Of a DNA stretch of 64,000 bases, positions 24,134 through 39,308 are shown in pieces. Both the position numbers and the translations under genes were made by a program. Each line of letters starts with the position of its first letter. Positions within the stretch are counted from its first letter, which is position 1. The notes below the pieces were generated by a model. It was not told where the DNA came from, ran no database searches, and saw nothing but the letters and a program-made list of their open reading frames with translations. Source of the stretch: Alphaproteobacteria bacterium (GTDB lineage: Bacteria > Pseudomonadota > Alphaproteobacteria > Rickettsiales > SXRF01); contig JBKDKX010000015.1 of the NCBI GenBank assembly GCA_046344715.1, positions 10,690-74,689 on the forward strand. The letters are read 5' to 3'.

Positions 24134-25399
24134 AGCGCCCTTGGTGTTGCAGGGGTCCAGCATTTGGCATACGGCTTGAAAACCAACAACACTCTTGAAT
24201 CTTTGAATATTTACAAGACTGGAGCCGGAGCCGAAGGCGCCAGGGCTATAGCTGATGCATTATGCGTAAACCAGACACTGAGTAAGCTTGAGATAAATCG
24301 TAACTATATTGGTGATGAGGGTGCCCGGGCAATGGCGCATATGCTCGAAAATAACCATGGGCTGATTACACTTGATATTGGGTTGAACGATATTACTGAC
24401 AGTGGCGCTAAGTCGCTGACGAATGCGTTATATAACAATAATACACTACTTGAAATTGACTTTAATTGTGCAAGATTTGGTGAAGAAGCCATAGAAGCGA
24501 TGGCAGCCCTGATTGCAGCCAATAAAGCACCTTTATATCTAGACATTAGGGGCAATTTTGCTCCCATGCCTGGGTTGGAGAAAATAGCAAAAGCCTTAGA
24601 AAGCAATGATACAATGTTAAATCTGGACATAAGCAATATGTGGCCAGAACAAGTTCTTGAAAGCTATATTGACTCTTTTGCTGCAGGGCTGCGTACAAAT
24701 CGCACTTTGGCCTCCATAAACATTGATGGAACAAATCCTAGATATAAAACATTCAGTCGTATAGATAACGCGTTGCTCGATAGTAAAAACTATGTTGATG
24801 ACCATTCTGGTTTTAAAAAGTTTACCGTTTGCGATGCAAATAAAAATGCGGCAAAACGCTTGCTTGATAAAATGAGAAAATCACCTGATAAGCTCAGTTT
24901 GGGTGATATCGATGAGATTAAAGAACGATCACAGGCTATAATTTTCCTTATCACTAGATACAATATTAGTCGGGATGGTGTGATTGAAACTGTTGGTTTA
25001 TTTGCAGCAGCACAAGATCGTGCGCGCGAATTAGGTACGGAAATTAAACTACCTGCTTATTGGCAAAAGAGAATTGATGCATTTAAGGAGCCAGTAACTC
25101 GTAGCAATAAGCCATACCCTCTCAAGGCAGATCGCACTCTCACGCTTGCCCGCCTTCAGGAAACAAAGGCCGATGGAAGAACTAACCTACAGATATTCGC
25201 CGAGCAGGGGCAATTGGGGGATGTATTCACAGCCGAGATATGGCAGGGCCGCAAGGATGAGATGGACAAAGCATGGCAGCTGGTAAAGCCGCAGCACCAA
25301 AACCAGGTGAACATTGAATTGGTACGTCAGCAGATAGATGCATTTAACCTGCGCGACCGTTTCCGTCGCGATGGGGACGATGTAGCGCAGGGGTTTTGA
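24134..25399 (+). pseudogene. ribonuclease-inhibitor-like LRR protein, apparently 5'-truncated
   Basis: ~28-aa repeats NxTLxxLxIxxNxIGDxGAxxxAxxL; repeat pattern runs back to an in-frame TAG near 24130 with no good start. Confidence 0.7.
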
Positions 25400-25785
25400 G
25401 GAGCATGAATTGAATTCATATACTGATCTAAAGTAGAAACGATTCTGCTGAGCGGAAATCGGATCTCCGACCCGTAATTACCAAACTAATGGATGGCCTG
25501 AGTATAGGAGTAGCTAGTATTACGCAATCTTCTTAATAAAAGTGCCGAACGGGTCTGGGACTCTGTGTCCAATGTGACTAGTTGGACTTATAACGACCGA
25601 TAGTCAATAAATTCAATGGCATACTGAGAGCGTTTGCGCTAATCATGCTACTGCACAGCCAAGTCCATAATATTGATATTTACCATTGGGATATCTACTC
25701 GCGGTGAAAATGCTTGGCATAAGGCCTATATTGTATTAGAAAGTGCCTCCCTTGCGGCCTTCGCGTCGTAGAGGTTTTTTGGTGA

Positions 25786-25862
25786 CGCGGGGTGGAGCAG
25801 CCCGGTAGCTCGTTAGGCTCATAACCTAAAGGTCGTCAGTTCAAATCTGGCCCCCGCAACCA
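25786..25862 (+). tRNA. initiator tRNA-fMet(CAT)
   Basis: C1/A72 mismatch, anticodon arm ttagg-ctCATaa-cctaa, T-loop gttcaaat, CCA. Confidence 0.96.
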
Positions 25863-27489
25863 TTCCGGCTTTAAATGAGCCGCCCAGAGCCAGTTTAAAA
25901 AGATTCTCAGAGTTGTAGCGAAGTTCAGCTTCTAAGTACTCATTTGAATTCGGTATTAATCGAATTTGCCCCATTAAGCCCTTCAAACACTGCCGCGCTT
26001 GGGTGACGTCTGTATAAAGGGCTTGGCCTAATCCGGCGACCAGTGCCTTATAACGCTCCACTGCGCGTGGCAGAACGGTAGTAATGATCTCTGCAGCCTT
26101 CGCATTGGCCTGTAGTTCTCTTTTAGCCCGAGCATACTCAGCTTCTGCATTCTGCAAGGCTTCCTTGGTGGTAGGGGTAATGATACCAGCCTGTATCGCC
26201 TTCATGATGTTAGCGATTTGCTCTTCTGCTTCCTTGGCTTTACGCTTTTGTGTGTCCACGTCCGGTTTCCGTGCGTTCTGCCTATTCTGTAAATCTTCTG
26301 TAATAATAGAAAGAAATACCTCCATCGCTTCGTCAGAAAGTAAGTCTTGGCGGATTATATCAAGTAAGCTGCCCTCAAGTATTTTACGCGATAAGCGCAG
26401 CCGGTTGGAACATGCCGCATCGCCACGGTTTATGTTAGTAGAGCACCCATAAGAGGTGCTGCTGTAGACGGTATAGCTCGCCCCGCAACAGCCACATTGT
26501 ATCAAGCCAGAAAATAAATACTTACCACTATGCGAGCGCGTTCTGGGATTATCCATCACTTCCCTAAGTTGATTAGATCGCTCGCGGATTTCCTTATGCC
26601 GTGCCTGCACCACGTCCCATAATGGCTGTGGCACAATGCGTAGTTCCGGCATTTCGGTTATCACCCATTCCTTTGCTTCGCGCTTGGTACGCCTGCGCTT
26701 TCCAGTATCGGGGTCTTTTCGCCATTCTGAACGGTTCCAAATATAACGGCCAATATAGAGCTGGTTATTTAAAAGCCCCGTGCCGTCATTATGGTCGCCA
26801 TAGATGGCGCTCGCCGCCCATGTAGAACCGCGTGTTGAAGATACGCCGAGGCGGTTCAGCTTATCAGCAATCCGCTTTGGGCTATCACCACCCGCAAACC
26901 ACTCGTACATTTGCTGCACCCACTTAGCTTCATCCGGGTCTATTTCACGCCTAACGGCTATGATCTCCGGCCTGCCATTGGGGTCCTTGCGTATTGGGTC
27001 TTCAATCGGCACGCGCTTATAACCATAGGTTCGCCCGCCTGCGCTGTATCCGCCCATTGCCTTGCCATACATTCCTCGATGTGTCTTTTCGCGTAAGTCG
27101 TCGAGGTACATCTCGTTCATCAGCCCGCGCATCGTGGACTGAATCTTCTCACCTTTGGTTGCTGAGTCATATCCGTCCGATACGCCAACGATGCGTAGGC
27201 CTTGGAACTTGAACCGGCGAATAACTTGCTTCATTTCCACATCGTCGCGTGAGAGCCGGGAGAGATCATCCACCAACAGCACTTTAAATTCGCGCCGCTC
27301 TGCCGCTGCAAGCATCGCCTCAAAGCCGGGACGGTTTTTGCTGGTCCCTGATATAGCCTTGTCATCGAATTGTGTGGCTAGCGTCATCCCGCATCGCTCG
27401 GCATAGCGAGTACAGTTGCGAACTTGGTCATCAATTGAGCTTTCACTCTGTTTATCACTGCTAAAACGCGCATATATAACTGTCTTCAT
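25819..27489 (-). CDS. large serine integrase
   Basis: YARFSS nucleophile, SRLSRD, recombinase domain, CGCCG..YGC..C zinc ribbon, coiled coil; GGAGG before MKTVIY; 3' end overlaps tRNA antisense. Confidence 0.95.
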   Translation of the reverse strand: MKTVIYARFSSDKQSESSIDDQVRNCTRYAERCGMTLATQFDDKAISGTSKNRPGFEAMLAAAERREFKVLLVDDLSRLSRDDVEMKQVIRRFKFQGLRIVGVSDGYDSATKGEKIQSTMRGLMNEMYLDDLREKTHRGMYGKAMGGYSAGGRTYGYKRVPIEDPIRKDPNGRPEIIAVRREIDPDEAKWVQQMYEWFAGGDSPKRIADKLNRLGVSSTRGSTWAASAIYGDHNDGTGLLNNQLYIGRYIWNRSEWRKDPDTGKRRRTKREAKEWVITEMPELRIVPQPLWDVVQARHKEIRERSNQLREVMDNPRTRSHSGKYLFSGLIQCGCCGASYTVYSSTSYGCSTNINRGDAACSNRLRLSRKILEGSLLDIIRQDLLSDEAMEVFLSIITEDLQNRQNARKPDVDTQKRKAKEAEEQIANIMKAIQAGIITPTTKEALQNAEAEYARAKRELQANAKAAEIITTVLPRAVERYKALVAGLGQALYTDVTQARQCLKGLMGQIRLIPNSNEYLEAELRYNSENLFKLALGGSFKAGMVAGARFELTTFRL

Positions 27490-27577
27490 AATTACCTCCA
27501 TGTGAACAACCGTCCAGCTTATATGGACAGGTGGGAATCGAAAGAGAAATGGTGGGCTAGTAATATAAGAGAGGTTT

Positions 27578-27620
27578 TAAGGGTTAGTGGGTTATAACCT
27601 AATAACCCCTTTAACCCTTA
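27578..27620. repeat. GGGTTA/TAACCC inverted repeat cluster (candidate origin or terminator)
   Basis: taagggtta (27578-86)/taaccctta (27612-20) and gggttat (27589-95)/ataaccc (27602-08). Confidence 0.6.
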
Positions 27621-29306
27621 TCCTGTAGCTTAACGCCGTCCCGCTTTTGCACCTGTTTTGATGCCGGAACATATTTGCCGTCTGGCGTACGTAATATGAT
27701 TCCATCGCGCACCATACGATTTAACGTCTTTCCAATACCACCCTGCTTACGATCAGTTTCTTGTGCAATTTCACGGGAACTCATCGGACGTCCCACCTGC
27801 ACCATAGCAAGCACGATCTCCTGATGTGTGCTGCTTATACGTAGTGGTACAGCATCGCCATGCGCTGTCCAAACTCCTTCATCAAAGGTCAGTGCTATTT
27901 CCTGTTCCACAACGTCACGACCACTTACATGCAATGATGCTTGAGCATTATTACGTTCACGAATCAGTACAAAATTAGTATCGGCTGAACCAGATATGCC
28001 ATTGGTTCCAGAAATCATCTCAAACGGATCATCAGAACCTTGTTTGCGCACATGATGTACCACCACAATTGCTATTGCAAAGCGGTCAGCAATTTTCTTC
28101 AGTGCGGAAACAGCCTCATAATCCTCATAGTATGAACCGCCACCTTTCGGTGTATTTCTGACCTTGGCAAAAGTGTCGATGAAGACTGCTTTGCAAGCTG
28201 GATTCTTCGCAAGCCTTCGTTCAAGCGCAAGTAGGCCTTGTTCATCCACAGACTTCCAAGTTATATGGAATTCCAACCGCCGCGCATCTTCGCGGGCAAG
28301 GTTCGGCGCAACCTTTTTTAATCGATCCTTTAATCGACGCTCAGAGTCCTCAAGAGCTAAATACAGAACCTCAGCAGCCTCGGTATCGTAAAAATTAAGT
28401 GCTCTTCGGCCAGAAGCAATGGCCACCACCAGCGCAAGTACAAGCCAACTCTTGCCGATCTTCGGTTTGCCCGCTAAAAATGTCAATCCTACTGGAATTA
28501 AGCCGGGTATTACCCAACGTATAGGCTCAATATCTTTTAGCAAAAGTTCGTCAGCAGAAATGCCTGTGCCTAGAAAAAGAGGCACTCTTTCAAGATTAGC
28601 GAATGCTTGTTTTGCCTTTTTCCCATGCAATTTTATAAAGTCATCTACGCCAACCTTCATTACTCCTGCGGGACGCGGTAAATCTATCCGAAAAGGGTTT
28701 GCGCCGTAGTTTACTAAAGCATCACGTAACGCATCCAAGGCCGCTTGTACGTTTTTCTTATACATCGGCATCAAACACGATAATGGTTTTACGATTTACC
28801 AGTTTGATATGGTTAAAATCGCTGATGACTTCTGATGATTCATCTTCTTTCGATTTCCAACCCCATACACCGCTCAAGCCAATTGCCGGACTGCCGAGCA
28901 ATGTAAGCGCAGCAGCCTTCTTTTCGCCTTCAACAATATATAAATCATCGCTGTTTACTGCGATTTTCGACCAATCGCAGAATGGTGGGAAATAAAATCT
29001 AGGTTTAGTGCCAGTAAGCTGTAAGTATTTTACAGACTTTTTCGCTCCTTGCGGTGTATATTCTTCAAGCAGTTTATATCGGCAAAATCCATTAAGCTTA
29101 CCGTCAGGGTCAAAATATGGGATTTCGTACGCCCATACTTTTGGTAGATTTTTAGGCGCAGGTTTATTTAATTTGATGTAAGCATTGCGAAATATACTTG
29201 CCATTTCGTCGGGGGATACATCACGAATTTGCATAACCTCGGCTGCTTTTTGATCCAGACAGCTATTCTTCAAATCATCAAGTGTTGGTTTCCTAAATTT
29301 AGTCAT
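27611..29306 (-). pseudogene. DUF3854-type primase fused to RepA/AAA_25 helicase, frameshifted near 28760
   Basis: ORF1 has VEGEKKA and ends at TOPRIM motif FDADV*; ORF2 continues KNVQAA..KVGVDDF then GKPKIGKS, YLALED, FIDT, VVHH. Confidence 0.8.
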
Positions 29307-29467
29307 AATTGTTCCTTTGCGTTGGTGATACGCGCAGCTTCATGCTCACGCGCAAGATGACCTCCATCGCTTGACAACGGTTCTTCCAATGCACGGAGTT
29401 CGTCGAAATATTGTTCGACCGCTACCCGTGCTAGTAATCTAATTATGTTGCGAAGTTCTGGCGTCAT
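29303..29467 (-). CDS. 54-aa protein (not in ORF track), candidate recombination directionality factor
   Basis: MTPELRNIIRLLARVAVEQYFDEL...; ATGA overlap with primase start. Confidence 0.6.
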   Translation of the reverse strand: MTPELRNIIRLLARVAVEQYFDELRALEEPLSSDGGHLAREHEAARITNAKEQL

Positions 29468-29528
29468 GTCCCGCATATACGTGACAAAACAACTTATGAA
29501 AACGCCCTATCAGGATACCTAAAAGGTA

Positions 29529-30179
29529 TCAGAATCTAAGCCAATATCCCTTAGCAAACGCTAAAGTGCGCCGCATGGCGGCTTCCGTAATGCTATTTTC
29601 CCCGCCAAATATTTCTGCCATCACTTTTATTGAAACGCCTTCATTGTCAGCATCAAGGATACGTAGCAGAAGCGCTGGTGATCTCCCGTTCTTATTATTC
29701 TTTCTCTTGTCACGTTTGCGGCGCTCTGCAGAAGAATGCGTGCTCTTTGCATATTTTTCGTAAACTGCTTTTATGTATGCCAGTTGCGGTTTTATCGGGT
29801 GATTTCCATCCACACTAAAAATGAACCCGCCGAGCGGCTTACTTAAAGCCATCGCTTCATAATGTAAAAGCTGCTTTGTTTGATCGTGCTTAAGGAAATC
29901 AATTAAATGACAGGGCTGTGTATATTTAGGAGCAGCTTCTTGACTGGGGTCATGCCAATCATACAGCTCATATTTCATAAACCCATAAGGCTTTCGATTA
30001 AGCCAGTCCTTACGGTAATTCGGATCGCGTCTTAGGAATTCCCATCTTAGCCCATTCTCTTTTAGGCGTTCCACGTATTCATATTGTTGGGGCTTATCCC
30101 AATCGCATACATTCCATTTAGCGCGGTTCTTAGCCGCTTCTTTAGGGGGGAGTAGTTTTCGCATTCCTGCCTTAGCCAT
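29529..30179 (-). CDS. DUF6499/DUF2285 (FseA-like) transcriptional regulator
   Basis: WEFLRRDPNYRKDW and LLRILDA..G.S...A..FG helix-turn-helix. Confidence 0.7.
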   Translation of the reverse strand: MAKAGMRKLLPPKEAAKNRAKWNVCDWDKPQQYEYVERLKENGLRWEFLRRDPNYRKDWLNRKPYGFMKYELYDWHDPSQEAAPKYTQPCHLIDFLKHDQTKQLLHYEAMALSKPLGGFIFSVDGNHPIKPQLAYIKAVYEKYAKSTHSSAERRKRDKRKNNKNGRSPALLLRILDADNEGVSIKVMAEIFGGENSITEAAMRRTLAFAKGYWLRF

Positions 30180-30187
30180 GCTAATAA

Positions 30188-30424
30188 TTATCTCTTCATA
30201 AGTCTCTTTAGGATTGCTATCGGATCAGCGCTGAGTAACTTGGCAATCTCAAGGAACTCGATGAGATCAAGCCTACGCTCCCCTAATTCATATTTGGCTA
30301 CGAATGATTGTGGCTTCCCAAGTAATTTGGCCAATTCCTGCTGTGTATAGCCAGCTTTCTGCCTAGCTGAATGTAGCAGACCGCATAACTTCTTTACCTC
30401 TTTGGAATGTATTGTCTTTTTCAC
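30188..30424 (-). CDS. XRE HTH, controller-protein/QseC-like
   Basis: RQKAGYTQQELAKLLGKPQSFVAKYELGERRLDLIEF. Confidence 0.9.
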   Translation of the reverse strand: MKKTIHSKEVKKLCGLLHSARQKAGYTQQELAKLLGKPQSFVAKYELGERRLDLIEFLEIAKLLSADPIAILKRLMKR

Positions 30425-30467
30425 TATGGCTGCACAAATCTCTTGATGTGAACAGCCAAAGGAATTA

Positions 30468-30498
30468 ATCCTAAAATAGAATTATCCCAAAATAGGAT
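30468..30498. promoter_or_regulatory. tandem palindromic operators
   Basis: atcctaaaatagaat (30468-82) and atcccaaaataggat (30484-98), 16-bp period, in the divergent intergenic region. Confidence 0.7.
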
Positions 30499-30511
30499 AT
30501 TTAGGAGTAAT

Positions 30512-30982
30512 GTGTTGCCAGATAACGTAGACAAATTAGATGGCAAAGCATTAATGGATGCCTATCGATTTGTCCGCATCGGAAGCATAATAGCCCCTAA
30601 CCCAGTAACATTCTCAATCGAAATTCATTTAACTGAGGCTTTGTCATGGGAAAAAGCGATTTACATATTCGTATTTAATAATGAGATTGTGCGCGTGGGA
30701 TCGTCCAAAGGGCGACTCGGAAGGCGAATGAAAGAATGGTGTCGCTGCGTTACCAATGCGCTTCACAGAGTAAATGGACTGCCTGCCAAAAAAACAGTCA
30801 CACCCGATTGGGAAGCTCGTGGATGGAGCAAACTTTTAAATGCTCATGGCAGTGGGGAAATTTATGCCCGCGAAGCCACCGAAGTCACCACTCCGGTGGG
30901 CTCATTTAGGGCATATATGGACGAAGAAAGTATCCTCATAAATCGCCATAAGCCCAAAATGAATAGGCACAAAAATCGCTAG
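30512..30982 (+). CDS. GIY-YIG-like nuclease
   Basis: AIYIF..IVRVGSS..LGRRM..E.ILI..P.MN pattern. Confidence 0.6.
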   Translation: MLPDNVDKLDGKALMDAYRFVRIGSIIAPNPVTFSIEIHLTEALSWEKAIYIFVFNNEIVRVGSSKGRLGRRMKEWCRCVTNALHRVNGLPAKKTVTPDWEARGWSKLLNAHGSGEIYAREATEVTTPVGSFRAYMDEESILINRHKPKMNRHKNR

Positions 30983-31046
30983 GTTTTCGGTAGCAGCAGT
31001 TTTTGCATTATAGCTTTAGCTATTTTGAGATGGTCTCTAAAATTAA

Positions 31047-32384
31047 TTATGCTACTTCAAAAAGTTTGTAATTTTCAGAGGCTAAGACTGATAAGGATAA
31101 ATACGCTTTTTCGTCACCTTCAATGAATTTAATAATTTTGTTTAATACCATACCCATCGCACGCGCCATTAGAGGGGGGATTGCATTACCTACTTGCGCA
31201 CAGCGGGATACATCCAATTTTCTTCTCTCACCATTTAAAGTATATCGACCATAAAAATGGAAATCATCAGGAAAAGACTGAATCCGCGCCATTTCCCTAA
31301 TGCTGACATTTCGTGGGTACAAGTAATGGATAATTTCATCTGGATGTGTAGTTAGCGTAGAGCATGGTTTTTTGGGGTCTAACAAAAATTTCTTGTCTGT
31401 TTTAGTGCCACTTGCGAGCAAGAATTCTTTACTGAGCCTACCTTTCGGCTGAGTTTTGTGCGCGGCAATATAAAGACTACGAACTTTTGGCCCATGCTGT
31501 GAAAAACGATGGGAATTTGGGATCGATTTATTAGAAATACCCCTTCGCATTAGCTTCGCATATGTGCTTTTCGCTGGTAAGTATGTTGTGGATGGGAATT
31601 TAGGAGAGTCAGGACAAACAACTTCTGTGGCATTAGCCAAATCATGTAATGCTTCTTCAATATTTACTGGCCTATCTAAGGGTAAATTTAGCTCTCTTCG
31701 CTGTTCTAGAGATACCGATGCAAAGTAATTCTCGATAAGATTTTTAACATTAGATATGTCTTTTAGTTGTTTCTTGATTCCAACTATTACAACGCGTTTG
31801 CGCTCTTGCGGAACCCCATAGTCAGATGATTTAATTGTTGTAAATCCTGACGAATAACCTAGTTCCCGCAAACGCGCTAAAACTAAAGTTGCTACACTTT
31901 CTTTTAGCTGTCCTGGGCGTGCCTTAAAAGGGCGCGCAATTCCTTCTACATTTTCAATCATAACCAACGGTGGTTCAACGAGCTCAACGAGCTCAAGCAT
32001 CTTAAATGCTAATTCGTTCCTAGGGTCATCGCCATTGCGTAAACCACCAACTGAAAAACCTTGGCAGGGTGGTCCCCCGCAGATTAGAGAAATTTTCCCA
32101 TTAAGGCCCTTTAACTTTTTTCTAATACCCTCATCATTCAATAAATTCTCAATAGTATAATTTTGTTTTGGGAGCCAATTTGGCCATTTTTCAAAGTGCC
32201 CATAAGGCGCATCTGCGCACATCATATTCTTAGAGATAGTCTCAAATGCCATTGCATCTTTCTCGATGGCAAATATACCTTCCCATCCAGATTGTAATAA
32301 CCCTAAAGACAATCCTCCACAGCCAGCGAAGGCATCTATATATGTCTTTTTATTCAATAATTTTATTAGGTCTTCATTTTCCAT
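31047..32384 (-). CDS. DNA cytosine-C5 methyltransferase
   Basis: FAGCGG, GGPPCQGFS, ENV, PQ.R.R, SIREMARIQSFPD, QVGNA. Confidence 0.96.
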   Translation of the reverse strand: MENEDLIKLLNKKTYIDAFAGCGGLSLGLLQSGWEGIFAIEKDAMAFETISKNMMCADAPYGHFEKWPNWLPKQNYTIENLLNDEGIRKKLKGLNGKISLICGGPPCQGFSVGGLRNGDDPRNELAFKMLELVELVEPPLVMIENVEGIARPFKARPGQLKESVATLVLARLRELGYSSGFTTIKSSDYGVPQERKRVVIVGIKKQLKDISNVKNLIENYFASVSLEQRRELNLPLDRPVNIEEALHDLANATEVVCPDSPKFPSTTYLPAKSTYAKLMRRGISNKSIPNSHRFSQHGPKVRSLYIAAHKTQPKGRLSKEFLLASGTKTDKKFLLDPKKPCSTLTTHPDEIIHYLYPRNVSIREMARIQSFPDDFHFYGRYTLNGERRKLDVSRCAQVGNAIPPLMARAMGMVLNKIIKFIEGDEKAYLSLSVLASENYKLFEVA

Positions 32385-32453
32385 ATATAGCCACTACTTT
32401 AGGTTATCTATACTATATATAGCAGAAAAAGAAATGGGGTTTTAGAAATATCT

Positions 32454-33236
32454 TCACTTCTTGTTTTGAGTATCTAACAACTTATTCAAGTAATCGTGTA
32501 CATCAACCCCTGCCTTAAGAGCTGTATTTCTTAACCATTCAATATTCTCACTTGATATTCTTATAGGCGCGAATTTTTCAGGATATGCCCAACTGCATTT
32601 GAAACAATCTAGTTTACAACCTCGGCACGCGGTACTTTTAAAATTATTGCATTCCCCGCACAAAGGTTGCCAATTTTCTGAACTGTCGCCACCGCCCCGT
32701 ACTCGTGGAATTTTATGGTCTTGGTCAAACCTAACTTCAGGTTCTTTCCTCCCGCATACTGCACAAGAAAACTGATACTTACTTAGAACCGCAGACCAAT
32801 CCGCGTCAGATAATTTTACTCGTGGAATTCTTTTTGGAGAAAGTGCTAAATTTATAAGTTGGTATGTATTCCCTTGCCTTGCAATACCCGTGAGACCTTC
32901 CTCCCCCTGTAGTTCACGGACACGTCTAAACACATCAACATAAGGTTTATATACTGTGGTTTGATCGTGTTGGGATAATCTAAATTTATCTACTGCAGCA
33001 CGAAATTGTTCCGTTTTTATGTGGGGGCCGGGAATCTTATGCCCTGATGGCCAGAGAGTTTCTAACATTACTTTATAATATTGGCGGTTTGCTTTACTTA
33101 GCGAAACAAATTCTTTGACAACACCTTCAATCCAAGCGTCCCTTTCCTTGTCATTGGCAGAAGGCGTTCTATCAGGGGCCACAAGCTCTAGAAACTTTTG
33201 CCTTCCTTTGCTTTTTTTAGGTGAATTTTCTGACAT
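32454..33236 (-). CDS. HNH endonuclease, probable restriction endonuclease
   Basis: CAVCG..DHKIP..GG..NWQPLCGECNNFK; co-oriented upstream of the MTase. Confidence 0.85.
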   Translation of the reverse strand: MSENSPKKSKGRQKFLELVAPDRTPSANDKERDAWIEGVVKEFVSLSKANRQYYKVMLETLWPSGHKIPGPHIKTEQFRAAVDKFRLSQHDQTTVYKPYVDVFRRVRELQGEEGLTGIARQGNTYQLINLALSPKRIPRVKLSDADWSAVLSKYQFSCAVCGRKEPEVRFDQDHKIPRVRGGGDSSENWQPLCGECNNFKSTACRGCKLDCFKCSWAYPEKFAPIRISSENIEWLRNTALKAGVDVHDYLNKLLDTQNKK

Positions 33237-33415
33237 TTTGATAGGTTATGTGATTTAAGATATTACCCTGTTTATCACACCAATCTGAAATTGGTAGCTC
33301 AGTTGCCGTGTAAGCACAGTATTTTAATCCAAGACGAAACATTGGACGCTAGAAGAAAAGGGATTATGCTAAAAAACCTATTGTAATAGGATGAAATTTC
33401 TCAGAGTAAAATGCA

Positions 33416-33500
33416 ATGTCTAGTATTAAACTTAAAAATGTAGAAATAGACTATTTTCGTTCTATTAAGTAGTTATATTTCGATTTTCCAGAAAGTAAGC
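33416..33500 (+). pseudogene. remnant of ABC/SMC-type (AAA_15/OLD-like) ATPase N-terminus
   Basis: MSSIKLKNVEIDYFRSIK*LYFDFPE; in-frame TAG, no Walker A follows. Confidence 0.5.
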
Positions 33501-33649
33501 GGAAACGAAAACCTAAAGTATGCAATGCGGAACGTACAATAATTTCTGGCTTCGTATTCTTTGAGCGAATACGGGACATAATCCAGCTTCGATAATTAGG
33601 GGATTTCATGCTTACCATGCAATGTTTAGGTCAATCGCTAATATGAAGA

Positions 33650-34765
33650 TTAAGATAGAAGCTCACGGATAGCTTTACCCCTCAATTCGCGTTGAGCCTT
33701 ACGCCCAACGCTTTCGCGTGCTGCAAGTGTATAATCATCAGGCACCTGTCTTGAGAATTCCAACAGCCGTTTCCGAGCTTCGTCCTGAGGTAATTGCCTT
33801 AACGTAGCATTGCGGCTCAGTTCGACGGCCAAGCTAAAGAAATTAGCTTTATTCCACCACATCGATGAATCCGGAATATCAATTCCAGAAATAAATTCGG
33901 CGCTATCATTAATTGCAGTGATGACTTCATCATGTTCAGGAAAATCTTGTGCTTTTTCATCAAGATATTTTCTTACTCTATCATTACGCTGATAATAGCC
34001 ATCCATAAATGTACACATCAGGTTGAGTGTAAACATTAATGGTACTTTCCGATCAAATTCGAATGCGGTAAAAATGGATTTAGCTCTAACCAATTTAGAA
34101 AAGGGGCCATCTGCAGTTTGAATAACCCATTCCCAAGTTTTTTCATCGATTCCAGGATCTTTGCTGAATAAATTGCTTGCCAGTACTTCTAGATTACCAT
34201 CTTCGCTACCAACATCACCAAGTTCATCACTGTCTGAAACCTCATTGGAGATTTCTCCAGAGAGGGCTCGCGCTACTAACATAAATTCAGATGCAGAATA
34301 TTCTGAAGCTAATTTTTCGATAGCGGAGAGTGAGTAAAATGTTCTATTAAGCCTACGAAACACATCTTTTAGGCGTTCATCACCTGCATCCAGGTCAAAA
34401 TCAATTACAGGAACTTCATACTTCAAAAATATTTCACGTTCTGATGTAGTAAGATCTTTAAAAACTTTTCCATCAACAGTTAGGTTGCCATTAATAAATT
34501 CGCGAATTGTATTAAGGCGTTGCTGGCCATCTACTACAGCTTGGCTAGCTTGCATAGTATCCAAATCAATTGGCCCTCTAGCCAAAAAAATTTGGGGAAA
34601 TGGGTAGCCTTTTAAGATCGTATCAATAAAGTCGCGTTTATGGGTATCGCGCCAAACAAGGTTTCTTTGGAAATATGGCGATAAAGTAAGGCGTGCACTG
34701 CGCATTGCTGACACTAAGTCAATAATTTCCCTGGAACGCACAGTGTATTTTAAATCATTTTGCAT
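33650..34765 (-). CDS. DUF262 (GmrSD-N/ParB-Srx-like) protein
   Basis: PYFQRNLVW, VVDGQQRL, VFRRLN; no HNH/DUF1524 motif seen. Confidence 0.9.
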   Translation of the reverse strand: MQNDLKYTVRSREIIDLVSAMRSARLTLSPYFQRNLVWRDTHKRDFIDTILKGYPFPQIFLARGPIDLDTMQASQAVVDGQQRLNTIREFINGNLTVDGKVFKDLTTSEREIFLKYEVPVIDFDLDAGDERLKDVFRRLNRTFYSLSAIEKLASEYSASEFMLVARALSGEISNEVSDSDELGDVGSEDGNLEVLASNLFSKDPGIDEKTWEWVIQTADGPFSKLVRAKSIFTAFEFDRKVPLMFTLNLMCTFMDGYYQRNDRVRKYLDEKAQDFPEHDEVITAINDSAEFISGIDIPDSSMWWNKANFFSLAVELSRNATLRQLPQDEARKRLLEFSRQVPDDYTLAARESVGRKAQRELRGKAIRELLS

Positions 34766-34767
34766 AT

Positions 34768-35358
34768 CTACCCCATCAAAGTTGAAAGTGCGCTATCTTG
34801 TTTCCAGCAGAATGCATACTCATTCATATATACTGCTAAAGTAATTCGATTAAATGTCGCGGTATGTTTACGGCTTATCTGTCCTTCAAACTGCTTATGT
34901 AATTGGCTAAGCTGAGATTTAGGCATAACCTTAATTCTAATCATGCCGCGCTTAAGTATTTGTTCTTTAAATAGCTCAATCTGCTCAACACTCATGACCC
35001 CAAAAGGCGTGGAATCTGTAAAGCTACGAGTTGCTTTTACTATATCGATCCAAAGCTTTTGAAAAAGATCCGTATTTACGCACGCAACATCAAGATCAGA
35101 GATGGCCAGTTCAAAAAGCTTATCCTTGTATATGCTAAACCCTAATTGTGCAGAACCACAAAAATGAATACTTGAGTATGGAATTTTAAAATATTGGGAA
35201 ATCTCTGTCTTGATATCGAATTCTTTTTCCCTTTGCCGACTTAGCGAAGCAGGCCTTTCTTCTATGAACAGACGGCGTGCACGCATCTCTCGATCTGCAT
35301 ACCTAGCACCTATCGACCGAACCTGTTTCTTTAATTGTTCAAGCACTGTTTCCATCAT
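34768..35358 (-). CDS. Pol-beta-like nucleotidyltransferase-fold protein
   Basis: hGS (CGSAQLGFS) followed by SDLDV; 2 bp from the DUF262 start. Confidence 0.7.
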   Translation of the reverse strand: MMETVLEQLKKQVRSIGARYADREMRARRLFIEERPASLSRQREKEFDIKTEISQYFKIPYSSIHFCGSAQLGFSIYKDKLFELAISDLDVACVNTDLFQKLWIDIVKATRSFTDSTPFGVMSVEQIELFKEQILKRGMIRIKVMPKSQLSQLHKQFEGQISRKHTATFNRITLAVYMNEYAFCWKQDSALSTLMG

Positions 35359-35720
35359 TCGAAAACTCTAGTCGAGCGCAAAGCAATTGTACATCCTTGA
35401 AAGATTACGAAATGAAGTTAAAAATAGTTGGCCAAGCGGTTAACACTTATCTATTTTGGAATGGTAAAGTGCCTTCGACTGACGTTTAATATCATCAAAA
35501 ATCGTCATCGGGTTGGACAGCGCTATGACTGATAATACAGTCAGGAAACATTCAAACCCCAATGCCACCATTCTTGTTAATACAAGAAAGAAACAAGATA
35601 AAAGCCCCACTGTTAATACAATGGGAAAACAGTTAAAATGGTGGGCTTCAAGCAAAGGTTAAGGAGCGTTACCCAGTGGTCGCCCTAGAAGTCCCATAAA
35701 CCGACATTGGAGTCCTTTAG

Positions 35721-35835
35721 CTAGGCGGGTCTAGGTAGGCATCGCTTAACCTTAAACTCGACCTGCTGTCCTTTTATGGGAATCCGCACTATAAGGGCTG
35801 GGGGTTCGGTATTAATGTTTGAGCTAAATCGCGCC
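35721..35835 (-). repeat. internal copy of element right end / integrase tail
   Basis: cttttatgggaatccg..ctataag.gctgg..tattaa.gtttgagctaaatcgcgcc shared with 39123-39231. Confidence 0.88.
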
Positions 35836-36139
35836 GCCACATCCCAAGAATTTTGTTCTAAATCTGAGTTTTAAAAGCCATTTAAAGTTAGAACAAAAGC
35901 GCGTGCCCACATTGTGTTAGATGCTGAAGGCCGTGACGTTTGCTGCTGTACTAAGATTTTACTGCTCGGATTTCACTTTTTGTGTTATTTTTCTAATAAT
36001 TCTAGTAACTTAGATTACCTTAAGGGAGTGCAAATATTCTAAAATTCTTTACGCAAAATAATTACTTTACTTTTCTTAACCTCATAATAGGCTACTATCT
36101 ATCCCCTGTAGATAAAAAAAAATATAATAGGAGAAAGTT

Positions 36140-39088
36140 ATGACAAATGGAATATCGAGTGAGTTAAGCAGAGCCTTAGATTTGATTAAAGATAGAAAGG
36201 CATGGCCGTCTTCTGCAGCATTCGACAGCCACTTTTCTAATGCAGGGGTAGCTTCCAAATTTGAGCATGCCGCCCAGAAGGGCGATCTGTACGCAGCAGA
36301 ACGTATGTACCGTGTCTATAATGATTGGAACCAAAAATTAGATTCATATAGCGGCCAATATGGGTCTTCATACTACGTACATGTGTACACTATCGATTCA
36401 GAGGCAGCAGAAAGAATTCGTGGAAAAACTCTATCTGAAGTAGCACTTGATTATCCGTCAAATGCGTATTTCCAATCTGGAAGAAGACAACTGCAATGGA
36501 GACCACTTAGTGCTCTTGACATGTGTGTTTACCAAACAACTTATGATGCAAGAACTAAACACTCGTTTATACCCGACCACTATTCATTAAGAACTGATAG
36601 TGAGTCAGAAAAACCAGAGGTATATTTAGGAAGTAGTAAAATTACCACGGAACTAAGCGGTCTATCTGTGGCGGCTGCGTCTGGTAGCGCGGCAGCTGCT
36701 GATATACTTGGTAAATTCTATGATGTTGGTAGCATTACGTACGCAGCGTTTCTCCGCAATAAAAGAGCTGGCAATCCACATTACAACAGCCAAAAATCAG
36801 GTTATTATTCACGTCTACACAACTTCCTCACCGGCAAAAATGATGCGATGTATGGGGAGTACGTTGATGCACGCCTGAAAGACCCCGAAGGTATGTATGA
36901 TGTGGCGGAAGCGATTATCACAAATCAACATGTACGAAAATCATACAATCAGAAGAATGGCATAGCTGGCGATTCTGACCAAGGCGCACGAGATATACTT
37001 AAAAATGCAGCAAACCTTGGTTATGCCAATGCTGCGTGGCGGTTGGCGCGTCTGCATCATGAGCAATATATCATGACTGATAGCAAAACCGAGCTACAGC
37101 AATTGTTCCATTGGTATAAAAAAGCGGCAGAGCTTGGTAATAAGGAAGCAAGTCATCATATTGCGTATTTCAAGGCGCAGTTTCCAGATATTGAAGCCAC
37201 CGCAGCTTCGCTGGATAAGGTAGCAGTAAGCAACCCAACATCTGACTATCTGGCAAAACGCCCCGATGCTCTGGGTGAAGTGGTGATACCGGAGGCGGAT
37301 ATTGCATTCTTAAAATCACATAATCCAGATATAAAGGGAAGCCTGACCACAGCATCTAGCCTGCTTGATAAACAGCTCGGTGAAATGGACAAGTTTATGT
37401 CTGCGCTACAGGCAAAAATAAAAGTCTTGTTGGATAACGCAACACGTCTTGCCGAAGCGCAAGCTGCTATCGCCGGACGTGAAGACCAGATTCATCAACG
37501 CGTACAGGCACTTCATGAGATGAGAATGATACTGGCCGATGATAAAGGTCGAGGGGCTGAAGGTTGGGTATCAGGTGCAAATACCTTATTAATTACAGCA
37601 AACCCCAAGTTGGCTATTTTAGATGGACTCATGCGCTCGACTTTAGAAAAAGTAGGTACGTCTAACCAAGGAGGGTCTTTTGAAAATTATTTAAAGGCTC
37701 AGCGAATCAAGGTGGAGCTAGTGCGTGAGGAAGTAGCTAATATTGACCAAGCCATTGCGGCCACAAGGGGCACAGCACTGGTTAAAAGTATTCAAAAAGA
37801 CGAAGTGTCACAACGTCGTCTGCTTTCGGCATACCTGAAAAAGACACTTATTGACCAAGGGTTAAAGAATATTGCCTCACTAGAACCAATTGCAAAACAA
37901 CACGGCTTTAATTCGGTTGACCATTTAATCTCAGTAAGTGCCAATATTGCAGGTGACCAAGGAATGCTTGCAGGCGCATTGGGTGCATTTGTGCGTGGAT
38001 TTGCAGATACTAAGGATATGGAAACAATCATTGCACACGCTAACCGCCACACACTAGGCGGCAAAGAGTCTGAATTTAAGGTGACAAATGCTATAGTAAA
38101 TTTTGTTGAGCAGGTTATTAAACCAAATATAGACCAATATTCTTCCCTTGCATCACGCGTGGATGTGCTTAAAGCCGAAGGTGTTGATTTTGTGCAAAAC
38201 CCTAACGCCACACTTGCCACCAGAGACTACAAAAATCCGACCTTTGTCAAAACGTTGCTTGAAACTGAGTATAGCGTTTCAGGAAGCGCAGAAGTGGCAA
38301 AAATGTTTGACCACTCCATGCACAGGCATGGCAAACATGTCATTTATGACCCAACAGCGGATGGGGTGCAACACACCAAAAAAACCATAGATTTGGTTGA
38401 GCCGGATGAGGTCAGGGAATATAGCGATCTCGTGGCACAAAAAAGCAAACGTGGTGACAGGACACTTCCTCCTATGCCAAGCTTATTTACAAGAACCTGC
38501 GCAAATGAATACCTCACCCCATTGACAAAAAAACATGCTGAATCGACTAAATTTCATGATAGGCCGGATGCAGCACTTGCCTATGTAACTGCTACCCATG
38601 TGGTCGCAGATTTTATCGATAAGATGTCATTAAGCCCTCTGGCCAAATATAGGGCGACCCTAAAAGATAAATCATTAGTGGATAATGTTATTGCCCAGAC
38701 ATTCTTTGATTTCTTCAGCAGCATGGGTGTTGCACACAAAGCTAATTTTGCCGCTGGGTTTCAAGATGTAGAACGAAAATTTGGTAGTGGTGATTTTACC
38801 AAAGCAAGTTCAGATCTGGGACGGGAAATATCAAAAGATATGCTTGCACAATATGACGTATATGCAAAGTTGCTTGAAGCAAATTTAAAGAAGTCTCTCT
38901 CTGACAGCATTGCCCCAGAAGCAAGGCAATTACTGGCACAACTTGATGCCCTAGAAAAAGAAGGAGTTTCTATTGTAAAGCCTGAGATCATCAAAAATCA
39001 TGCCAGCCAGTATCTTGATGAATTGCGTACGCGAGAGATGGCGTTTGAGAATATGAGTCCGGCTGCACGCAGCTTGAGGGGAAAATAA
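36140..39088 (+). CDS. 982-aa Sel1-like repeat protein
   Basis: LKNAANLGYANAAWRLA, WYKKAAELGNKEASHHIA; AGGAG RBS; coiled-coil middle. Confidence 0.8.
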   Translation: MTNGISSELSRALDLIKDRKAWPSSAAFDSHFSNAGVASKFEHAAQKGDLYAAERMYRVYNDWNQKLDSYSGQYGSSYYVHVYTIDSEAAERIRGKTLSEVALDYPSNAYFQSGRRQLQWRPLSALDMCVYQTTYDARTKHSFIPDHYSLRTDSESEKPEVYLGSSKITTELSGLSVAAASGSAAAADILGKFYDVGSITYAAFLRNKRAGNPHYNSQKSGYYSRLHNFLTGKNDAMYGEYVDARLKDPEGMYDVAEAIITNQHVRKSYNQKNGIAGDSDQGARDILKNAANLGYANAAWRLARLHHEQYIMTDSKTELQQLFHWYKKAAELGNKEASHHIAYFKAQFPDIEATAASLDKVAVSNPTSDYLAKRPDALGEVVIPEADIAFLKSHNPDIKGSLTTASSLLDKQLGEMDKFMSALQAKIKVLLDNATRLAEAQAAIAGREDQIHQRVQALHEMRMILADDKGRGAEGWVSGANTLLITANPKLAILDGLMRSTLEKVGTSNQGGSFENYLKAQRIKVELVREEVANIDQAIAATRGTALVKSIQKDEVSQRRLLSAYLKKTLIDQGLKNIASLEPIAKQHGFNSVDHLISVSANIAGDQGMLAGALGAFVRGFADTKDMETIIAHANRHTLGGKESEFKVTNAIVNFVEQVIKPNIDQYSSLASRVDVLKAEGVDFVQNPNATLATRDYKNPTFVKTLLETEYSVSGSAEVAKMFDHSMHRHGKHVIYDPTADGVQHTKKTIDLVEPDEVREYSDLVAQKSKRGDRTLPPMPSLFTRTCANEYLTPLTKKHAESTKFHDRPDAALAYVTATHVVADFIDKMSLSPLAKYRATLKDKSLVDNVIAQTFFDFFSSMGVAHKANFAAGFQDVERKFGSGDFTKASSDLGREISKDMLAQYDVYAKLLEANLKKSLSDSIAPEARQLLAQLDALEKEGVSIVKPEIIKNHASQYLDELRTREMAFENMSPAARSLRGK

Positions 39089-39122
39089 TCCGCCCTTAAT
39101 GTTGCTTTGAGCGTCTTTAGGC

Positions 39123-39241
39123 TTAACCCATTCGGTTAACTCTAACCTTGCTTTGTTGCCCTTTTATGGGAATCCGGACTATAAGTGCTGGAGGCTCGTT
39201 AGGGTTATTAAAGTTTGAGCTAAATCGCGCCCCCGCAACCA
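39123..39241 (-). other. attR with in-frame alternative integrase C-terminal tail
   Basis: Minus strand reads VAGARFSSNFNNPNEPPALIVRIPIKGQQSKVRVNRMG* in the integrase frame across the att core. Confidence 0.8.
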
Positions 39242-39308
39242 ACACCACAGACAATCTCCGAGGATTGGCAAAAATCACACAATCTTCTGGTGCCGCATTT
39301 TCAGGATG

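What the first reader, a model, noticed from the sequence alone, without database searches (positions are those of the whole stretch)
25819..39241. Integrase C-terminus is swapped by its own recombination: tRNA-antisense tail when integrated, element-encoded tail when excised
Seen: the att core (gcccccgcaacca, 25850-62 and 39229-41) lies inside the integrase ORF. When integrated the protein ends MVAGARF-ELTTFRL*, read from the tRNA-fMet antisense strand. Joining the ends at the core keeps the frame and gives MVAGARF-SSNFNNPNEPPALIVRIPIKGQQSKVRVNRMG* (stop at 39123-25); ARF is retained with different codons (gcc aga ttt vs gcg cga ttt). Inference: the two isoforms could differ in stability or directionality, making a recombination-state switch. 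Known precedent for att sites inside genes: SSV-type integrases and the repressor of mycobacteriophage BPs.
Basis: partly seen in the sequence, partly recalled or inferred. Interest (0 to 1): 0.85.

Follow-up and report, generated by a model that had tools for sequence, protein, structure and literature searches.

The report
Serine integrase tail swapped by integration
A mobile island sits in this bacterium's only initiator-tRNA gene, and the enzyme that moves it ends in different amino acids when the island is inserted or free; the free-form ending is kept as protein in related islands, so it probably matters.

Summary
A 13,379-bp island (25863-39241) lies in the 3' end of the only initiator-type tRNA-Met gene and is bounded by an exact 13-bp repeat. 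Its only recombinase is a large serine recombinase (LSR, 25819-27501, minus strand). The LSR reading frame crosses the att core. The integrated form (560 aa) ends ARFELTTFRL*, read from the tRNA antisense. The excised junction stays in frame and gives 585 aa.

New here:
- Dyad symmetry of five attP sites puts the crossover between codons Gly550 and Ala551.
- 82 of the 120 best homologues end in initiator-tRNA antisense.
- The element-side arm recurs in other genomes of the order. Sixteen copies keep the same frame open, with whole-codon indels and substitutions concentrated at third codon positions (p about 1e-4). Six of them end in -AA.

The tail therefore looks like selected coding sequence. 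I read it as an integrase C-terminal module, possibly a degron, that integration removes.

Limits:
- Excision was not seen in public contigs.
- Three more distant islands carry unrelated tails.
- This window's own outer tail has lost the conserved end.

The closest precedent is phage Mx8 intP/intX, which is a tyrosine integrase. I rate this a new variant of a known kind.

The parts
25786..25862 (+). tRNA-Met(CAT), initiator type (C1 opposite A72). It is the integration target (B arm plus core). By the inferred crossover, its last 11 nt are supplied by the island.
   Evidence: ARAGORN. It is the only one of four tRNA(CAT) genes in the assembly with C1/A72. The only other DNA hit in the genome is 74% identical. 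That C1/A72 marks initiators is recalled knowledge.
25850..25862 (.). attL copy of the 13-bp identity GCCCCCGCAACCA. The inferred crossover dinucleotide is CC at 25851-25852.
   Evidence: The dyad centre lies at offset 2 in 5 of 5 attP reconstructions.
25819..27501 (-). Large serine recombinase, integrated isoform, 560 aa. Residues 1-550 are island-encoded. Residues 551-560 (ARFELTTFRL) are read from the tRNA antisense (25822-25851), and the stop is at 25819-25821.
   Evidence: Catalytic-domain invariants Y10, R12 and S14 appear in alignment A3. The AF2 model has mean pLDDT 80.6, with residues 540-560 below 50.
25863..25890 (.). P' half-site of attP, lying inside the recombinase's last codons (FKAGM...). 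The inverted-repeat element CTTTAA is at 25869-25874, 17 nt from the centre.
   Evidence: Read from the sequence. Symmetry scan. The same ACTTTAA element occurs in relic junctions L063 and L069.
39208..39228 (.). P half-site of attP. TTAAAG is at 39208-39213, 17 nt from the centre. On the minus strand this stretch encodes RFSSNFN, most of the tail's first block ARFSSNFN (its Ala codon, 39228-39230, runs two bases into the core).
   Evidence: This block is conserved without codon periodicity (p=0.26), which points to a DNA-site constraint.
39229..39241 (.). attR copy of the 13-bp identity.
39123..39230 (-). Element-encoded tail of the excised isoform: 35 codons (ARFSSNFNNPNEPPALIVRIPIKGQQSKVRVNRMG) plus stop TAA at 39123-39125.
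   Evidence: Homologous tails occur in 16 copies.
35742..35844 (+). Inner relic copy of the same element-side arm, 79-89% identical to 39132-39240, with a degenerate core (GCCGCCACATCC). On the minus strand it still reads ARFSSNINTEPPALIVRIPIKGQQVEFKVKRCLPRPA*. A weaker third half-site-like copy lies at 35880-35914.
   Evidence: (families D1, D2). A stop lies just upstream, so it is not fused to anything now.
27611..35358 (-). Island cargo and maintenance genes: AAA_25 protein (27611-28774), DUF3854 (28758-29306), Trans_reg_dom protein (29529-30179), HTH_3 (30188-30424), C5 DNA methyltransferase (31047-32384), HNH endonuclease (32454-33236), GmrSD_N/DUF262 protein (33650-34765), 196-aa ORF (34768-35358). 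A 156-aa ORF without a family (30512-30982) lies on the + strand.
36140..39088 (+). 982-aa ORF with no Pfam family, between the inner relic arm and the outer arm. It is probably what remains of a second element once inserted in tandem.
   Evidence: The tandem origin is inferred.

Best explanation
This is a composite 13.4-kb island inserted by a large serine recombinase (LSR) into the 3' end of the only initiator-tRNA gene. The whole attP site lies inside the 3' end of the LSR's own reading frame. The P' half-site encodes residues of about 543-550 (..FKAGMVAG). The crossover dinucleotide falls between the Gly550 and Ala551 codons. The P half-site encodes ARFSSNFN. About 27 further codons follow on the far end of the island.

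Recombination therefore rewrites the enzyme's C-terminus. The free circle encodes a 585-aa form that carries the element's own tail. The inserted island encodes a 560-aa form whose last 10 residues and stop codon come from the tRNA antisense. This part is shown by sequence.

I infer that the long form is the form under selection. Its tail behaves as coding sequence in related elements. The consensus is ARFSSNFN, then a linker of 1-5 codons, then PPALIVQIPIKGQQ, then G(D/E)IVV(R/K)R.LP.AA.

The most likely role, at about 30%, is a C-terminal ssrA-like degradation or regulatory signal. It would make integrase from a free or newly arrived element short-lived or differently regulated, and integration would remove it. 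After integration the gene also runs head-on into a tRNA gene. This is an integration-state switch of the Mx8 / BPs kind, here in a serine recombinase.

In this particular window the switch is probably decaying. The outer tail has lost the conserved ending through a small deletion, and the inner arm has a degenerate core.
For: Geometry
- The exact 13-bp repeat and the in-frame junction are confirmed.
- The same 13-mer bounds 3 other islands with homologous LSRs, of 11,965, 37,597 and 36,043 bp.
- The best dyad centre sits two identity bases in from the left in 5 of 5 attP reconstructions: 11, 14, 21, 18 and 14 complementary positions of 28. Random centres give 7.1 +/- 2.3. This falls on the codon 550/551 boundary.

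Family habit
- 72 of the 120 best homologues end ..FE(L/P)xxF(G/R)L* and 10 more end ..GGRI*. Both are initiator-tRNA antisense read in two frames.
- ARAGORN finds tRNA-Met in 16 of the 36 LSR-homologue loci scanned. Searches show LSR ORFs that read into it.

Tail as coding sequence
- The element-side arm of this window matches 29 of 400 genomes of the order at E<=0.01.
- 12 of 19 distinct genome copies and 4 of 5 metagenome copies keep the frame open through the conserved block.
- Linker lengths are 1, 2, 3 or 5 whole codons in 16 of 16 copies.
- In the block PPALIVQIPIKGQQ, 56% of column entropy is at codon position 3 (column shuffle p=1e-4).
- Eight independent pairs differ at codon positions 1/2/3 by 31/16/51 (binomial p=1e-4).
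- The two copies inside this window differ at 6 sites in that 14-codon block, all at codon position 3 and with identical residues; by eye the adjacent Glu codon adds a seventh synonymous change.
- The tail frame has the highest synonymous share (0.40) and 0 stops in 11 copies. The + strand frame that shares third positions has 0.29 and 2 stops.

Natural junctions
- Two relic junctions in other genomes (L063, L069) join an LSR 3' remnant (..KVRMVAG) in frame to this tail.

Ending
- 6 of 16 tails stop at one homologous place with -LAA, -IAA or -RAA. Two more stop there with -PA or -VA.
- The host has an alpha-type tmRNA (227 bits). Its only ANDN-containing frame ends ..VAVRAAA* (I assigned the tag frame by eye).

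Structure
- AF2 models residues 540-560 as disordered, below pLDDT 50, which suits a stretch whose sequence is dictated by DNA sites.

Precedents
- For Mx8, the attP site lies inside int and integration makes a new 3' end (PMC6070905, passages).
- For BPs, an ssrA-like tag is lost on integration, and Int also carries a C-terminal proteolysis signal (PMC4557955, passages).
Against: - No direct evidence of excision or of the long protein was obtained (see Tried and rejected).
- The tails of the three more distant complete islands are unrelated to this one and to each other: 15, 33 and 37 residues beyond the swap, and one is in another frame. The G031-type arm was found only in G031 itself, plus one chance-level 30-nt match (E=7.7e-4), among 401 genomes.
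- No protein of 91 to 2000 residues in the 5.8-billion-protein collection scored E<=10 against this tail. No LSR fused to it has therefore been predicted anywhere.
- 7 of 19 genome copies are cut by early stops or frameshifts. All 16 full copies, apart from L063 and L069, sit in attR-type or relic contexts, not behind an intact LSR. The selection I infer acted in their past.
- This window's outer tail ends ..SKVRVNRMG*, not -AA. 10 of 16 tails do not end in -AA.
- The first 8 tail residues show no codon periodicity (p=0.26). Their conservation can be explained by the DNA site.
- That a terminal -AA is read by ClpXP in this host is recalled knowledge about other bacteria, not something tested here.
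Confidence: 0.6

Rival explanations
1. The read-through is incidental. attP happens to abut the end of the recombinase gene, so the ORF runs on into whatever lies beyond the crossover until a stop turns up. The tails would then have no function, and the conservation of the element-side arm would reflect DNA-level constraints (the recombinase half-site, perhaps binding sites for a directionality factor) or recent spread.
For: Four complete islands carry four unrelated tails of 15-37 residues, close to the mean random run of about 21 codons (the expectation is my arithmetic). The first 24 nt of the tail are the P half-site and show no periodicity. Residues 540-560 are modelled as disordered. No fused long form was found among predicted proteins. 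This window's own tail has lost the conserved end.
Against: Beyond the half-site, substitutions concentrate at codon position 3 (p=1e-4 in two tests). All 16 linker indels are whole codons. Eight of 16 copies share the same stop position. LSR att sites are about 40-50 bp (abstract of bioRxiv 10.1101/2025.05.02.651858 in the listing), yet conservation reaches about 100 nt from the core.
Confidence: 0.22
2. The conserved arm encodes something other than the recombinase tail. Candidates are a small + strand ORF (39148..39426 in this window, MLCCPFMGIRTISAGG...), a small peptide started at the TTG or GTG in the attR core, or a structured RNA.
For: The + strand frame shares its third positions with the tail frame. 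It is open in this window and has a raised synonymous share (0.29). A TTG or GTG codon precedes VAG at several attR sites.
Against: The + frame has 2 stops in 11 copies and a lower synonymous share than the tail frame. By eye, copy L065 lacks its ATG and has TGA in that frame. Rfam gives no match at E<=1 over 35500-39500. RNAalifold finds only 6 and 11 pairs, at -4.6 and -5.9 kcal/mol. The only part upstream of the tail that is conserved across contexts is the core itself, which continues the recombinase frame.
Confidence: 0.06
3. In this genome the island is a fixed, decaying composite that no longer excises. The swap would then be a historical feature of the family and not a working switch in this cell.
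For: An inner relic arm with 4 mismatches in its core shows tandem insertion followed by decay. The outer tail carries an 11-nt deletion relative to the inner copy, which removes the conserved ending. Relic arms without any LSR are common in relatives.
Against: The LSR ORF is intact and keeps the family's invariant residues. Both 13-bp cores and both half-sites of the outer pair are intact.
Confidence: 0.35

Closest known systems
Myxococcus phage Mx8 integrase, intP converted to intX (Tojo 1996 and Magrini 1999, seen only as reference-list entries; review PMC6070905, passages read)
   Same: attP lies inside the integrase coding sequence. Integration creates a recombinant int gene with a new 3' end. 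The review says the event does not inactivate the integrase but modifies its specificity. That Mx8's target is a tRNA gene is recalled, not read.
   Different: Mx8 Int is a tyrosine recombinase; this enzyme is a large serine recombinase with a simple, dyad-symmetric attP. By recall, Mx8 replaces a long C-terminal segment. Here only the last 35 codons are exchanged for 10, at a predicted disordered end.
Integration-dependent immunity of mycobacteriophage BPs (PMC4557955, passages read; Broussard 2013 seen only as its citation)
   Same: attP lies inside a coding sequence. Integration removes a C-terminal extension (33 residues in BPs) that carries an ssrA-like degradation tag. The integrase there also carries a C-terminal proteolysis signal.
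   Different: In BPs the gene that is cut is the repressor, not the integrase, and its integrase is not said there to change on integration. Here the degron reading rests only on -AA endings in 6 of 16 tails, and no repressor is involved.
SSV-type archaeal virus integrases
   Same: The att site lies inside the integrase gene.
   Different: By recall, integration splits that gene into two separated parts. Here 550 of 560 residues stay in one piece and only the tail changes. Those integrases are tyrosine recombinases.
Mesorhizobium 'C089B-type' nickel islands and IMEs at tRNA-Met that carry a serine recombinase (PMC10990125, one passage read; PMC8627217, passages read)
   Same: [quoted passage not shown] Both hosts are Alphaproteobacteria. 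Islands of this kind are therefore already described.
   Different: The passages I read say nothing about the recombinase ORF crossing the att site or about a changed C-terminus. I did not test whether that recombinase belongs to this family.

Membership tests
Large serine recombinase (serine integrase) | N-terminal resolvase-type catalytic domain with a serine nucleophile | tested here: met
   PF00239 at E=1.2e-29 over residues 8-148. Y10, R12 and S14 are invariant in 43 aligned homologues.
Large serine recombinase (serine integrase) | Recombinase domain and zinc-ribbon domain with an inserted coiled coil | tested here: met
   PF07508 at 3.3e-20 and PF13408 at 2.8e-9. The AF2 model has two long helices at 390-437 and 443-489 after the zinc ribbon.
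Large serine recombinase (serine integrase) | Short, imperfectly dyad-symmetric attP centred on the crossover dinucleotide | tested here: met
   The same centre is the best centre in 5 of 5 attP reconstructions. It is strong in G031 (21/28) and G048 (18/28) and weak in this window (11/28, tied with another centre).
Large serine recombinase (serine integrase) | attP x attB integration without cofactors; excision needs a directionality factor | not testable with these tools
   No assay was possible, and no directionality factor was identified in the island.
Mx8-type integrase with attP inside int | The att core lies inside the integrase ORF, and integration gives the gene a new 3' end | tested here: met
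   82 of 120 homologues end in tRNA antisense.
Mx8-type integrase with attP inside int | Tyrosine recombinase | tested here: not met
   The enzyme is a serine recombinase. It works like Mx8 in this respect but is not a member of that family.
Mx8-type integrase with attP inside int | The prophage form has altered activity | not testable with these tools
   This needs biochemistry or genetics.
BPs-type integration-dependent degron switch | [quoted passage not shown] | tested here: inconclusive
   -LAA, -IAA or -RAA occurs at one homologous stop in 6 of 16 tails. The host tmRNA tag frame ends -AAA. This window's outer tail ends -RMG and its inner relic ends -RPA.
BPs-type integration-dependent degron switch | The gene cut by attP is the immunity repressor | tested here: not met
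   The gene crossed by attP is the recombinase itself.
SSV-type split integrase | Integration separates the int gene into two parts at the two ends of the provirus | tested here: not met
   Codons 1-550 stay contiguous at attL. Only 35 tail codons lie at attR.

The most novel reading that the evidence does not exclude
A whole clade of serine integrases that target the initiator tRNA senses its own recombination state through its C-terminus. The free-element isoform would carry a conserved peptide of about 36-40 residues ending in an ssrA-like -AA. That peptide would make the enzyme short-lived or gate its activity. Integration would cut it off at a codon boundary and replace it with tRNA-antisense residues. 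The result would be a self-limiting pulse of integrase without any repressor, evolved independently of the BPs and Mx8 systems and built entirely into a 50-bp att site that doubles as coding sequence.
Probability: 0.3. Interest if true: 0.85.

Novelty: new variant of a known kind. Interest (0 to 1): 0.7.

Why it matters
Serine integrases are prized genome-engineering tools because their att sites are short and the reaction runs one way. How their amount and direction are controlled in natural elements is less well known.

This case shows an att site that is at once a recombinase binding site, the end of the recombinase's own coding sequence, and the supplier of the last 11 bases of an essential tRNA. 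If the conserved free-form tail controls stability or activity, it would be a compact control module that removes itself. That is a regulatory logic so far described for a tyrosine integrase (Mx8) and a phage repressor (BPs), but not found for serine integrases in my searches.

It also matters for annotation. 82 of the 120 closest database proteins carry a C-terminus that exists only in the integrated state. The native ends of these enzymes, and their attP sites, can be read straight from the gene's last codons.

Tried and rejected
Excision evidence. The look-up of sequencing runs listed 19 freshwater-metagenome runs, all kept as contigs; no RNA holder was listed. Read laying of X1, X5, X9 and X11 on 25500-39500 gave no joints. 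Contigs cover the integrated junctions: X1 record 8 spans 25833-39500, X5 record 17 spans attL, and X11 record 16 spans attR. Contigs drop rare variants, so this says nothing about rare circles or empty sites.

Fused long form. A search with the 51-aa attR ORF for longer proteins found none at E<=10; this is weak evidence. Scans of metagenome contigs and genome contigs with the tail alignment found 5 and 6 loci. None has an intact LSR fused to the tail.

Empty site. The right flank was not found by DNA search in three same-genus genomes, so no empty attB was recovered.

Far ends. For 8 of 12 oriented islands no far-end repeat was found in 18-40 kb, even when 2 mismatches were allowed.

Tail identity. 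The tail has no Pfam family (0 of 12 members) and no meaningful match to the Protein Data Bank (best E=0.35).

RNA readings. Rfam and RNAalifold gave nothing convincing.

tmRNA. ARAGORN found no tmRNA in the genome. The Rfam alpha_tmRNA model did.

Inner relic. Its right flank aligns only weakly with the LSR 3' end (score 27, gapped). I therefore call it a relic site, not a proven relic attP.

Binding test. Complex prediction (LSR residues 1-550 plus tail) was sent six times and never answered, so there is no verdict.

Paper supplements are closed; the SI tables of PMC10990125 and PMC8627217 may name the recombinases.
Full report
WHAT IS THERE

The window holds a tRNA-Met(CAT) gene at 25786-25862. 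Its last 13 bases, GCCCCCGCAACCA, recur exactly at 39229-39241. Between the two copies lie 13,379 bp of island DNA.

The first island gene, 25819..27501 on the minus strand, is a large serine recombinase (LSR): Resolvase, Recombinase and Zn_ribbon_recom domains. The rest encodes an AAA_25 protein, a DUF3854 protein, two regulators, a C5 methyltransferase with an HNH nuclease, a GmrSD_N protein and a 982-aa ORF with no family. No tyrosine-recombinase Pfam family was hit among the 12 island ORFs scanned.

The tRNA is the initiator type. It is the only one of the assembly's four tRNA(CAT) genes with C1 opposite A72 (the rule is recalled). It has no close second copy.

The LSR ORF runs across the core into the tRNA antisense and ends ...MVAGARFELTTFRL*. 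Its TGA is the complement of the anticodon loop. When a script joins the island's ends at the core, the frame continues for 35 codons and stops at 39123-39125. That gives 585 instead of 560 residues.

WHERE THE SWAP HAPPENS

I rebuilt attP for four complete islands (this one, G030, G031, G048) and took one relic junction (L069). In all five the best dyad centre lies two bases inside the left edge of the 13-bp identity: 11, 14, 21, 18 and 14 complementary positions of 28, against 7.1 +/- 2.3 for random centres.

In this window TTAAAG (39208-39213) and CTTTAA (25869-25874) each sit 17 nt from that centre. The centre falls exactly between the GGG codon of Gly550 and the GCN codon of Ala551. Three consequences follow:
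- Residues up to ..MVAG are always island-encoded.
- The last 11 bases of the tRNA are supplied by the island. This explains why the identity extends mainly to one side.
- Residues of about 543-558 are encoded by the two attP half-sites.

AF2 models residues 540-560 as disordered. The crossover position is inferred from symmetry and was not mapped.

A FAMILY HABIT

Of the 120 best database homologues, 72 end ..FE(L/P)xxF(G/R)L* and 10 end ..GGRI*. Both are initiator-tRNA antisense in two frames. Twenty-four have the VAG motif followed by another tail, and 14 are truncated or otherwise different.

In genome searches, 7 of 61 relatives and 35 of 401 genomes of the class hold a homologue. ARAGORN finds tRNA-Met in 16 of the 36 loci scanned, and a tRNA-Glu in one. 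The LSR ORFs read into the tRNA. Titles of matching public records name Alphaproteobacteria and 'Rickettsiales' MAGs.

Islands at tRNA-Met with a serine recombinase and a 14-bp repeat have been described in Mesorhizobium (PMC10990125, passage).

IS THE FREE-FORM TAIL MORE THAN READ-THROUGH?

Across the family, the answer is not obviously yes. The three other complete islands have unrelated tails of 15-37 residues. No predicted protein of 91 to 2000 residues carries this tail.

The element-side arm of this window is not unique, however. It has a second, degenerate copy inside the island (35742-35844), and it matches 29 of 400 genomes of the order.

Of 19 distinct genome copies, 12 keep the tail frame open through a conserved block and 7 are cut by stops or frameshifts. 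Four of 5 further metagenome copies are also open. The 16 open copies read ARFSSNFN, then a linker of 1, 2, 3 or 5 whole codons, then PPALIVQIPIKGQQ, then G(D/E)IVV(R/K)R.LP.AA.

The first block is the P half-site and shows no codon periodicity (p=0.26). The second block does:
- 56% of column entropy is at position 3 (shuffle p=1e-4).
- Eight independent pairs differ by 31/16/51 at positions 1/2/3 (p=1e-4).
- The window's two copies differ at six sites in that 14-codon block, all at codon position 3 and with identical residues; by eye the adjacent Glu codon adds a seventh synonymous change.

The + strand frame that shares third positions does worse: synonymous share 0.29 against 0.40, and 2 stops against 0. 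No RNA family or consensus fold fits.

Two relic junctions in other genomes join an LSR 3' remnant in frame to this tail. A 71%-identical LSR in G765 belongs to an element that ends in the same kind of arm.

I conclude that the tail was translated and selected as the end of the recombinase in the free or attP configuration.

WHAT THE TAIL MAY DO

Eight of 16 tails stop at one homologous position, six of them with -LAA, -IAA or -RAA. The host has an alpha-type tmRNA whose tag frame ends -AAA (I assigned the frame by eye). By recalled knowledge, terminal Ala-Ala marks ssrA-type substrates of ClpXP.

In phage BPs an ssrA-like tag on the virally encoded repressor is removed by integration, and Int also carries a C-terminal proteolysis signal (PMC4557955, passages). 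In Mx8 the new int 3' end changes the enzyme's behaviour (PMC6070905, passage).

My preferred mechanism, at about 30%, is a degron or regulatory peptide that integration removes. A further 30-35% goes to some other function of the tail. About 22% goes to no function.

THIS WINDOW IN PARTICULAR

The island is a composite. An inner relic arm with a degenerate core separates the LSR-bearing part from the 982-aa gene. The outer tail has an 11-nt deletion relative to the inner copy and has lost the conserved ending. The LSR and the outer att pair look intact. Public contigs show only the integrated form, which is not evidence of absence.

NOVELTY

The principle is known for a tyrosine integrase (Mx8) and, for a repressor, in BPs. 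My literature searches turned up no report of a serine integrase whose attP lies inside its own ORF, or of a conserved recombination-dependent tail.

VERDICT

I rate it a new variant of a known kind, with interest 0.7.

Noticed in passing
window 35742-35914: An inner copy of the island's right-end arm has a degenerate core, and a weaker half-site-like copy lies 70 nt further on. The island looks like two elements inserted in tandem, with the second reduced to the 982-aa gene. Similar stacked relic arms occur in G048 (two copies downstream of its island) and G482 (two copies 144 nt apart).
   Followed up: partly
window 36140-39088 (+): A 982-aa ORF has no Pfam family at E<=0.01. It is the only gene between the inner and outer arms.
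   Followed up: no
window 31047-35358 (-): Defence-type cargo: a C5 cytosine methyltransferase next to an HNH endonuclease, then a GmrSD_N (DUF262) protein and a 196-aa ORF without a family.
   Followed up: no
window 25786-25862: The initiator tRNA's anticodon stem reads TTAGG/CCTAA, so it has two rather than three consecutive G:C pairs next to the loop. G031 and G048 have the same form; G030 has TCAGG/CCTGA. That three G:C pairs are the usual initiator hallmark is recalled knowledge.
   Followed up: no
G000:C23:82326-82400: A second tRNA(CAT), with T1:A72, ends in 12 of the 13 core bases (..ACCCCCGCAACCA). It could serve as a secondary target for this recombinase family.
   Followed up: no
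L050 (G272:C21): A 35%-identical LSR reads into the antisense of a tRNA-Glu(CTC) gene instead of tRNA-Met (..VASPTGFEPVLPT). The habit of ending inside a tRNA has apparently been carried over to another target.
   Followed up: no
proteins P0010, P0011, P0027, P0031, P0033; locus L014: Some homologues carry the ..K.R(L/M)VAG motif twice, 10-20 residues apart, before the tRNA-antisense end. P0011 has an SSNF-containing spacer like this window's tail. They look like in-frame fossils of a collapsed tandem site.
   Followed up: no
L012 / L021 (G048:C1): In G048 the LSR reads into a 3' fragment of the tRNA only (ARAGORN finds no gene), with a 410-aa ORF that by eye resembles a phage-type (tyrosine) integrase immediately beyond it (no domain search was run). 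Elements of two recombinase classes seem to be stacked at one tRNA.
   Followed up: partly
L094 (G765:C78): A 71%-identical LSR ends ..KVRMVAGAAIEPEK* with no tRNA beside it. A second LSR fragment with tRNA-Met lies at a contig end (L095). This is probably a tandem array in which one recombinase carries the short tail of a neighbour's arm.
   Followed up: partly
window 24164-25399 (+): A 411-aa protein with LRR_6 repeats lies just upstream of the tRNA. The genome is 2.08 Mb and came from freshwater metagenomes. This would suit a host-associated lifestyle, but I did not examine it.
   Followed up: no
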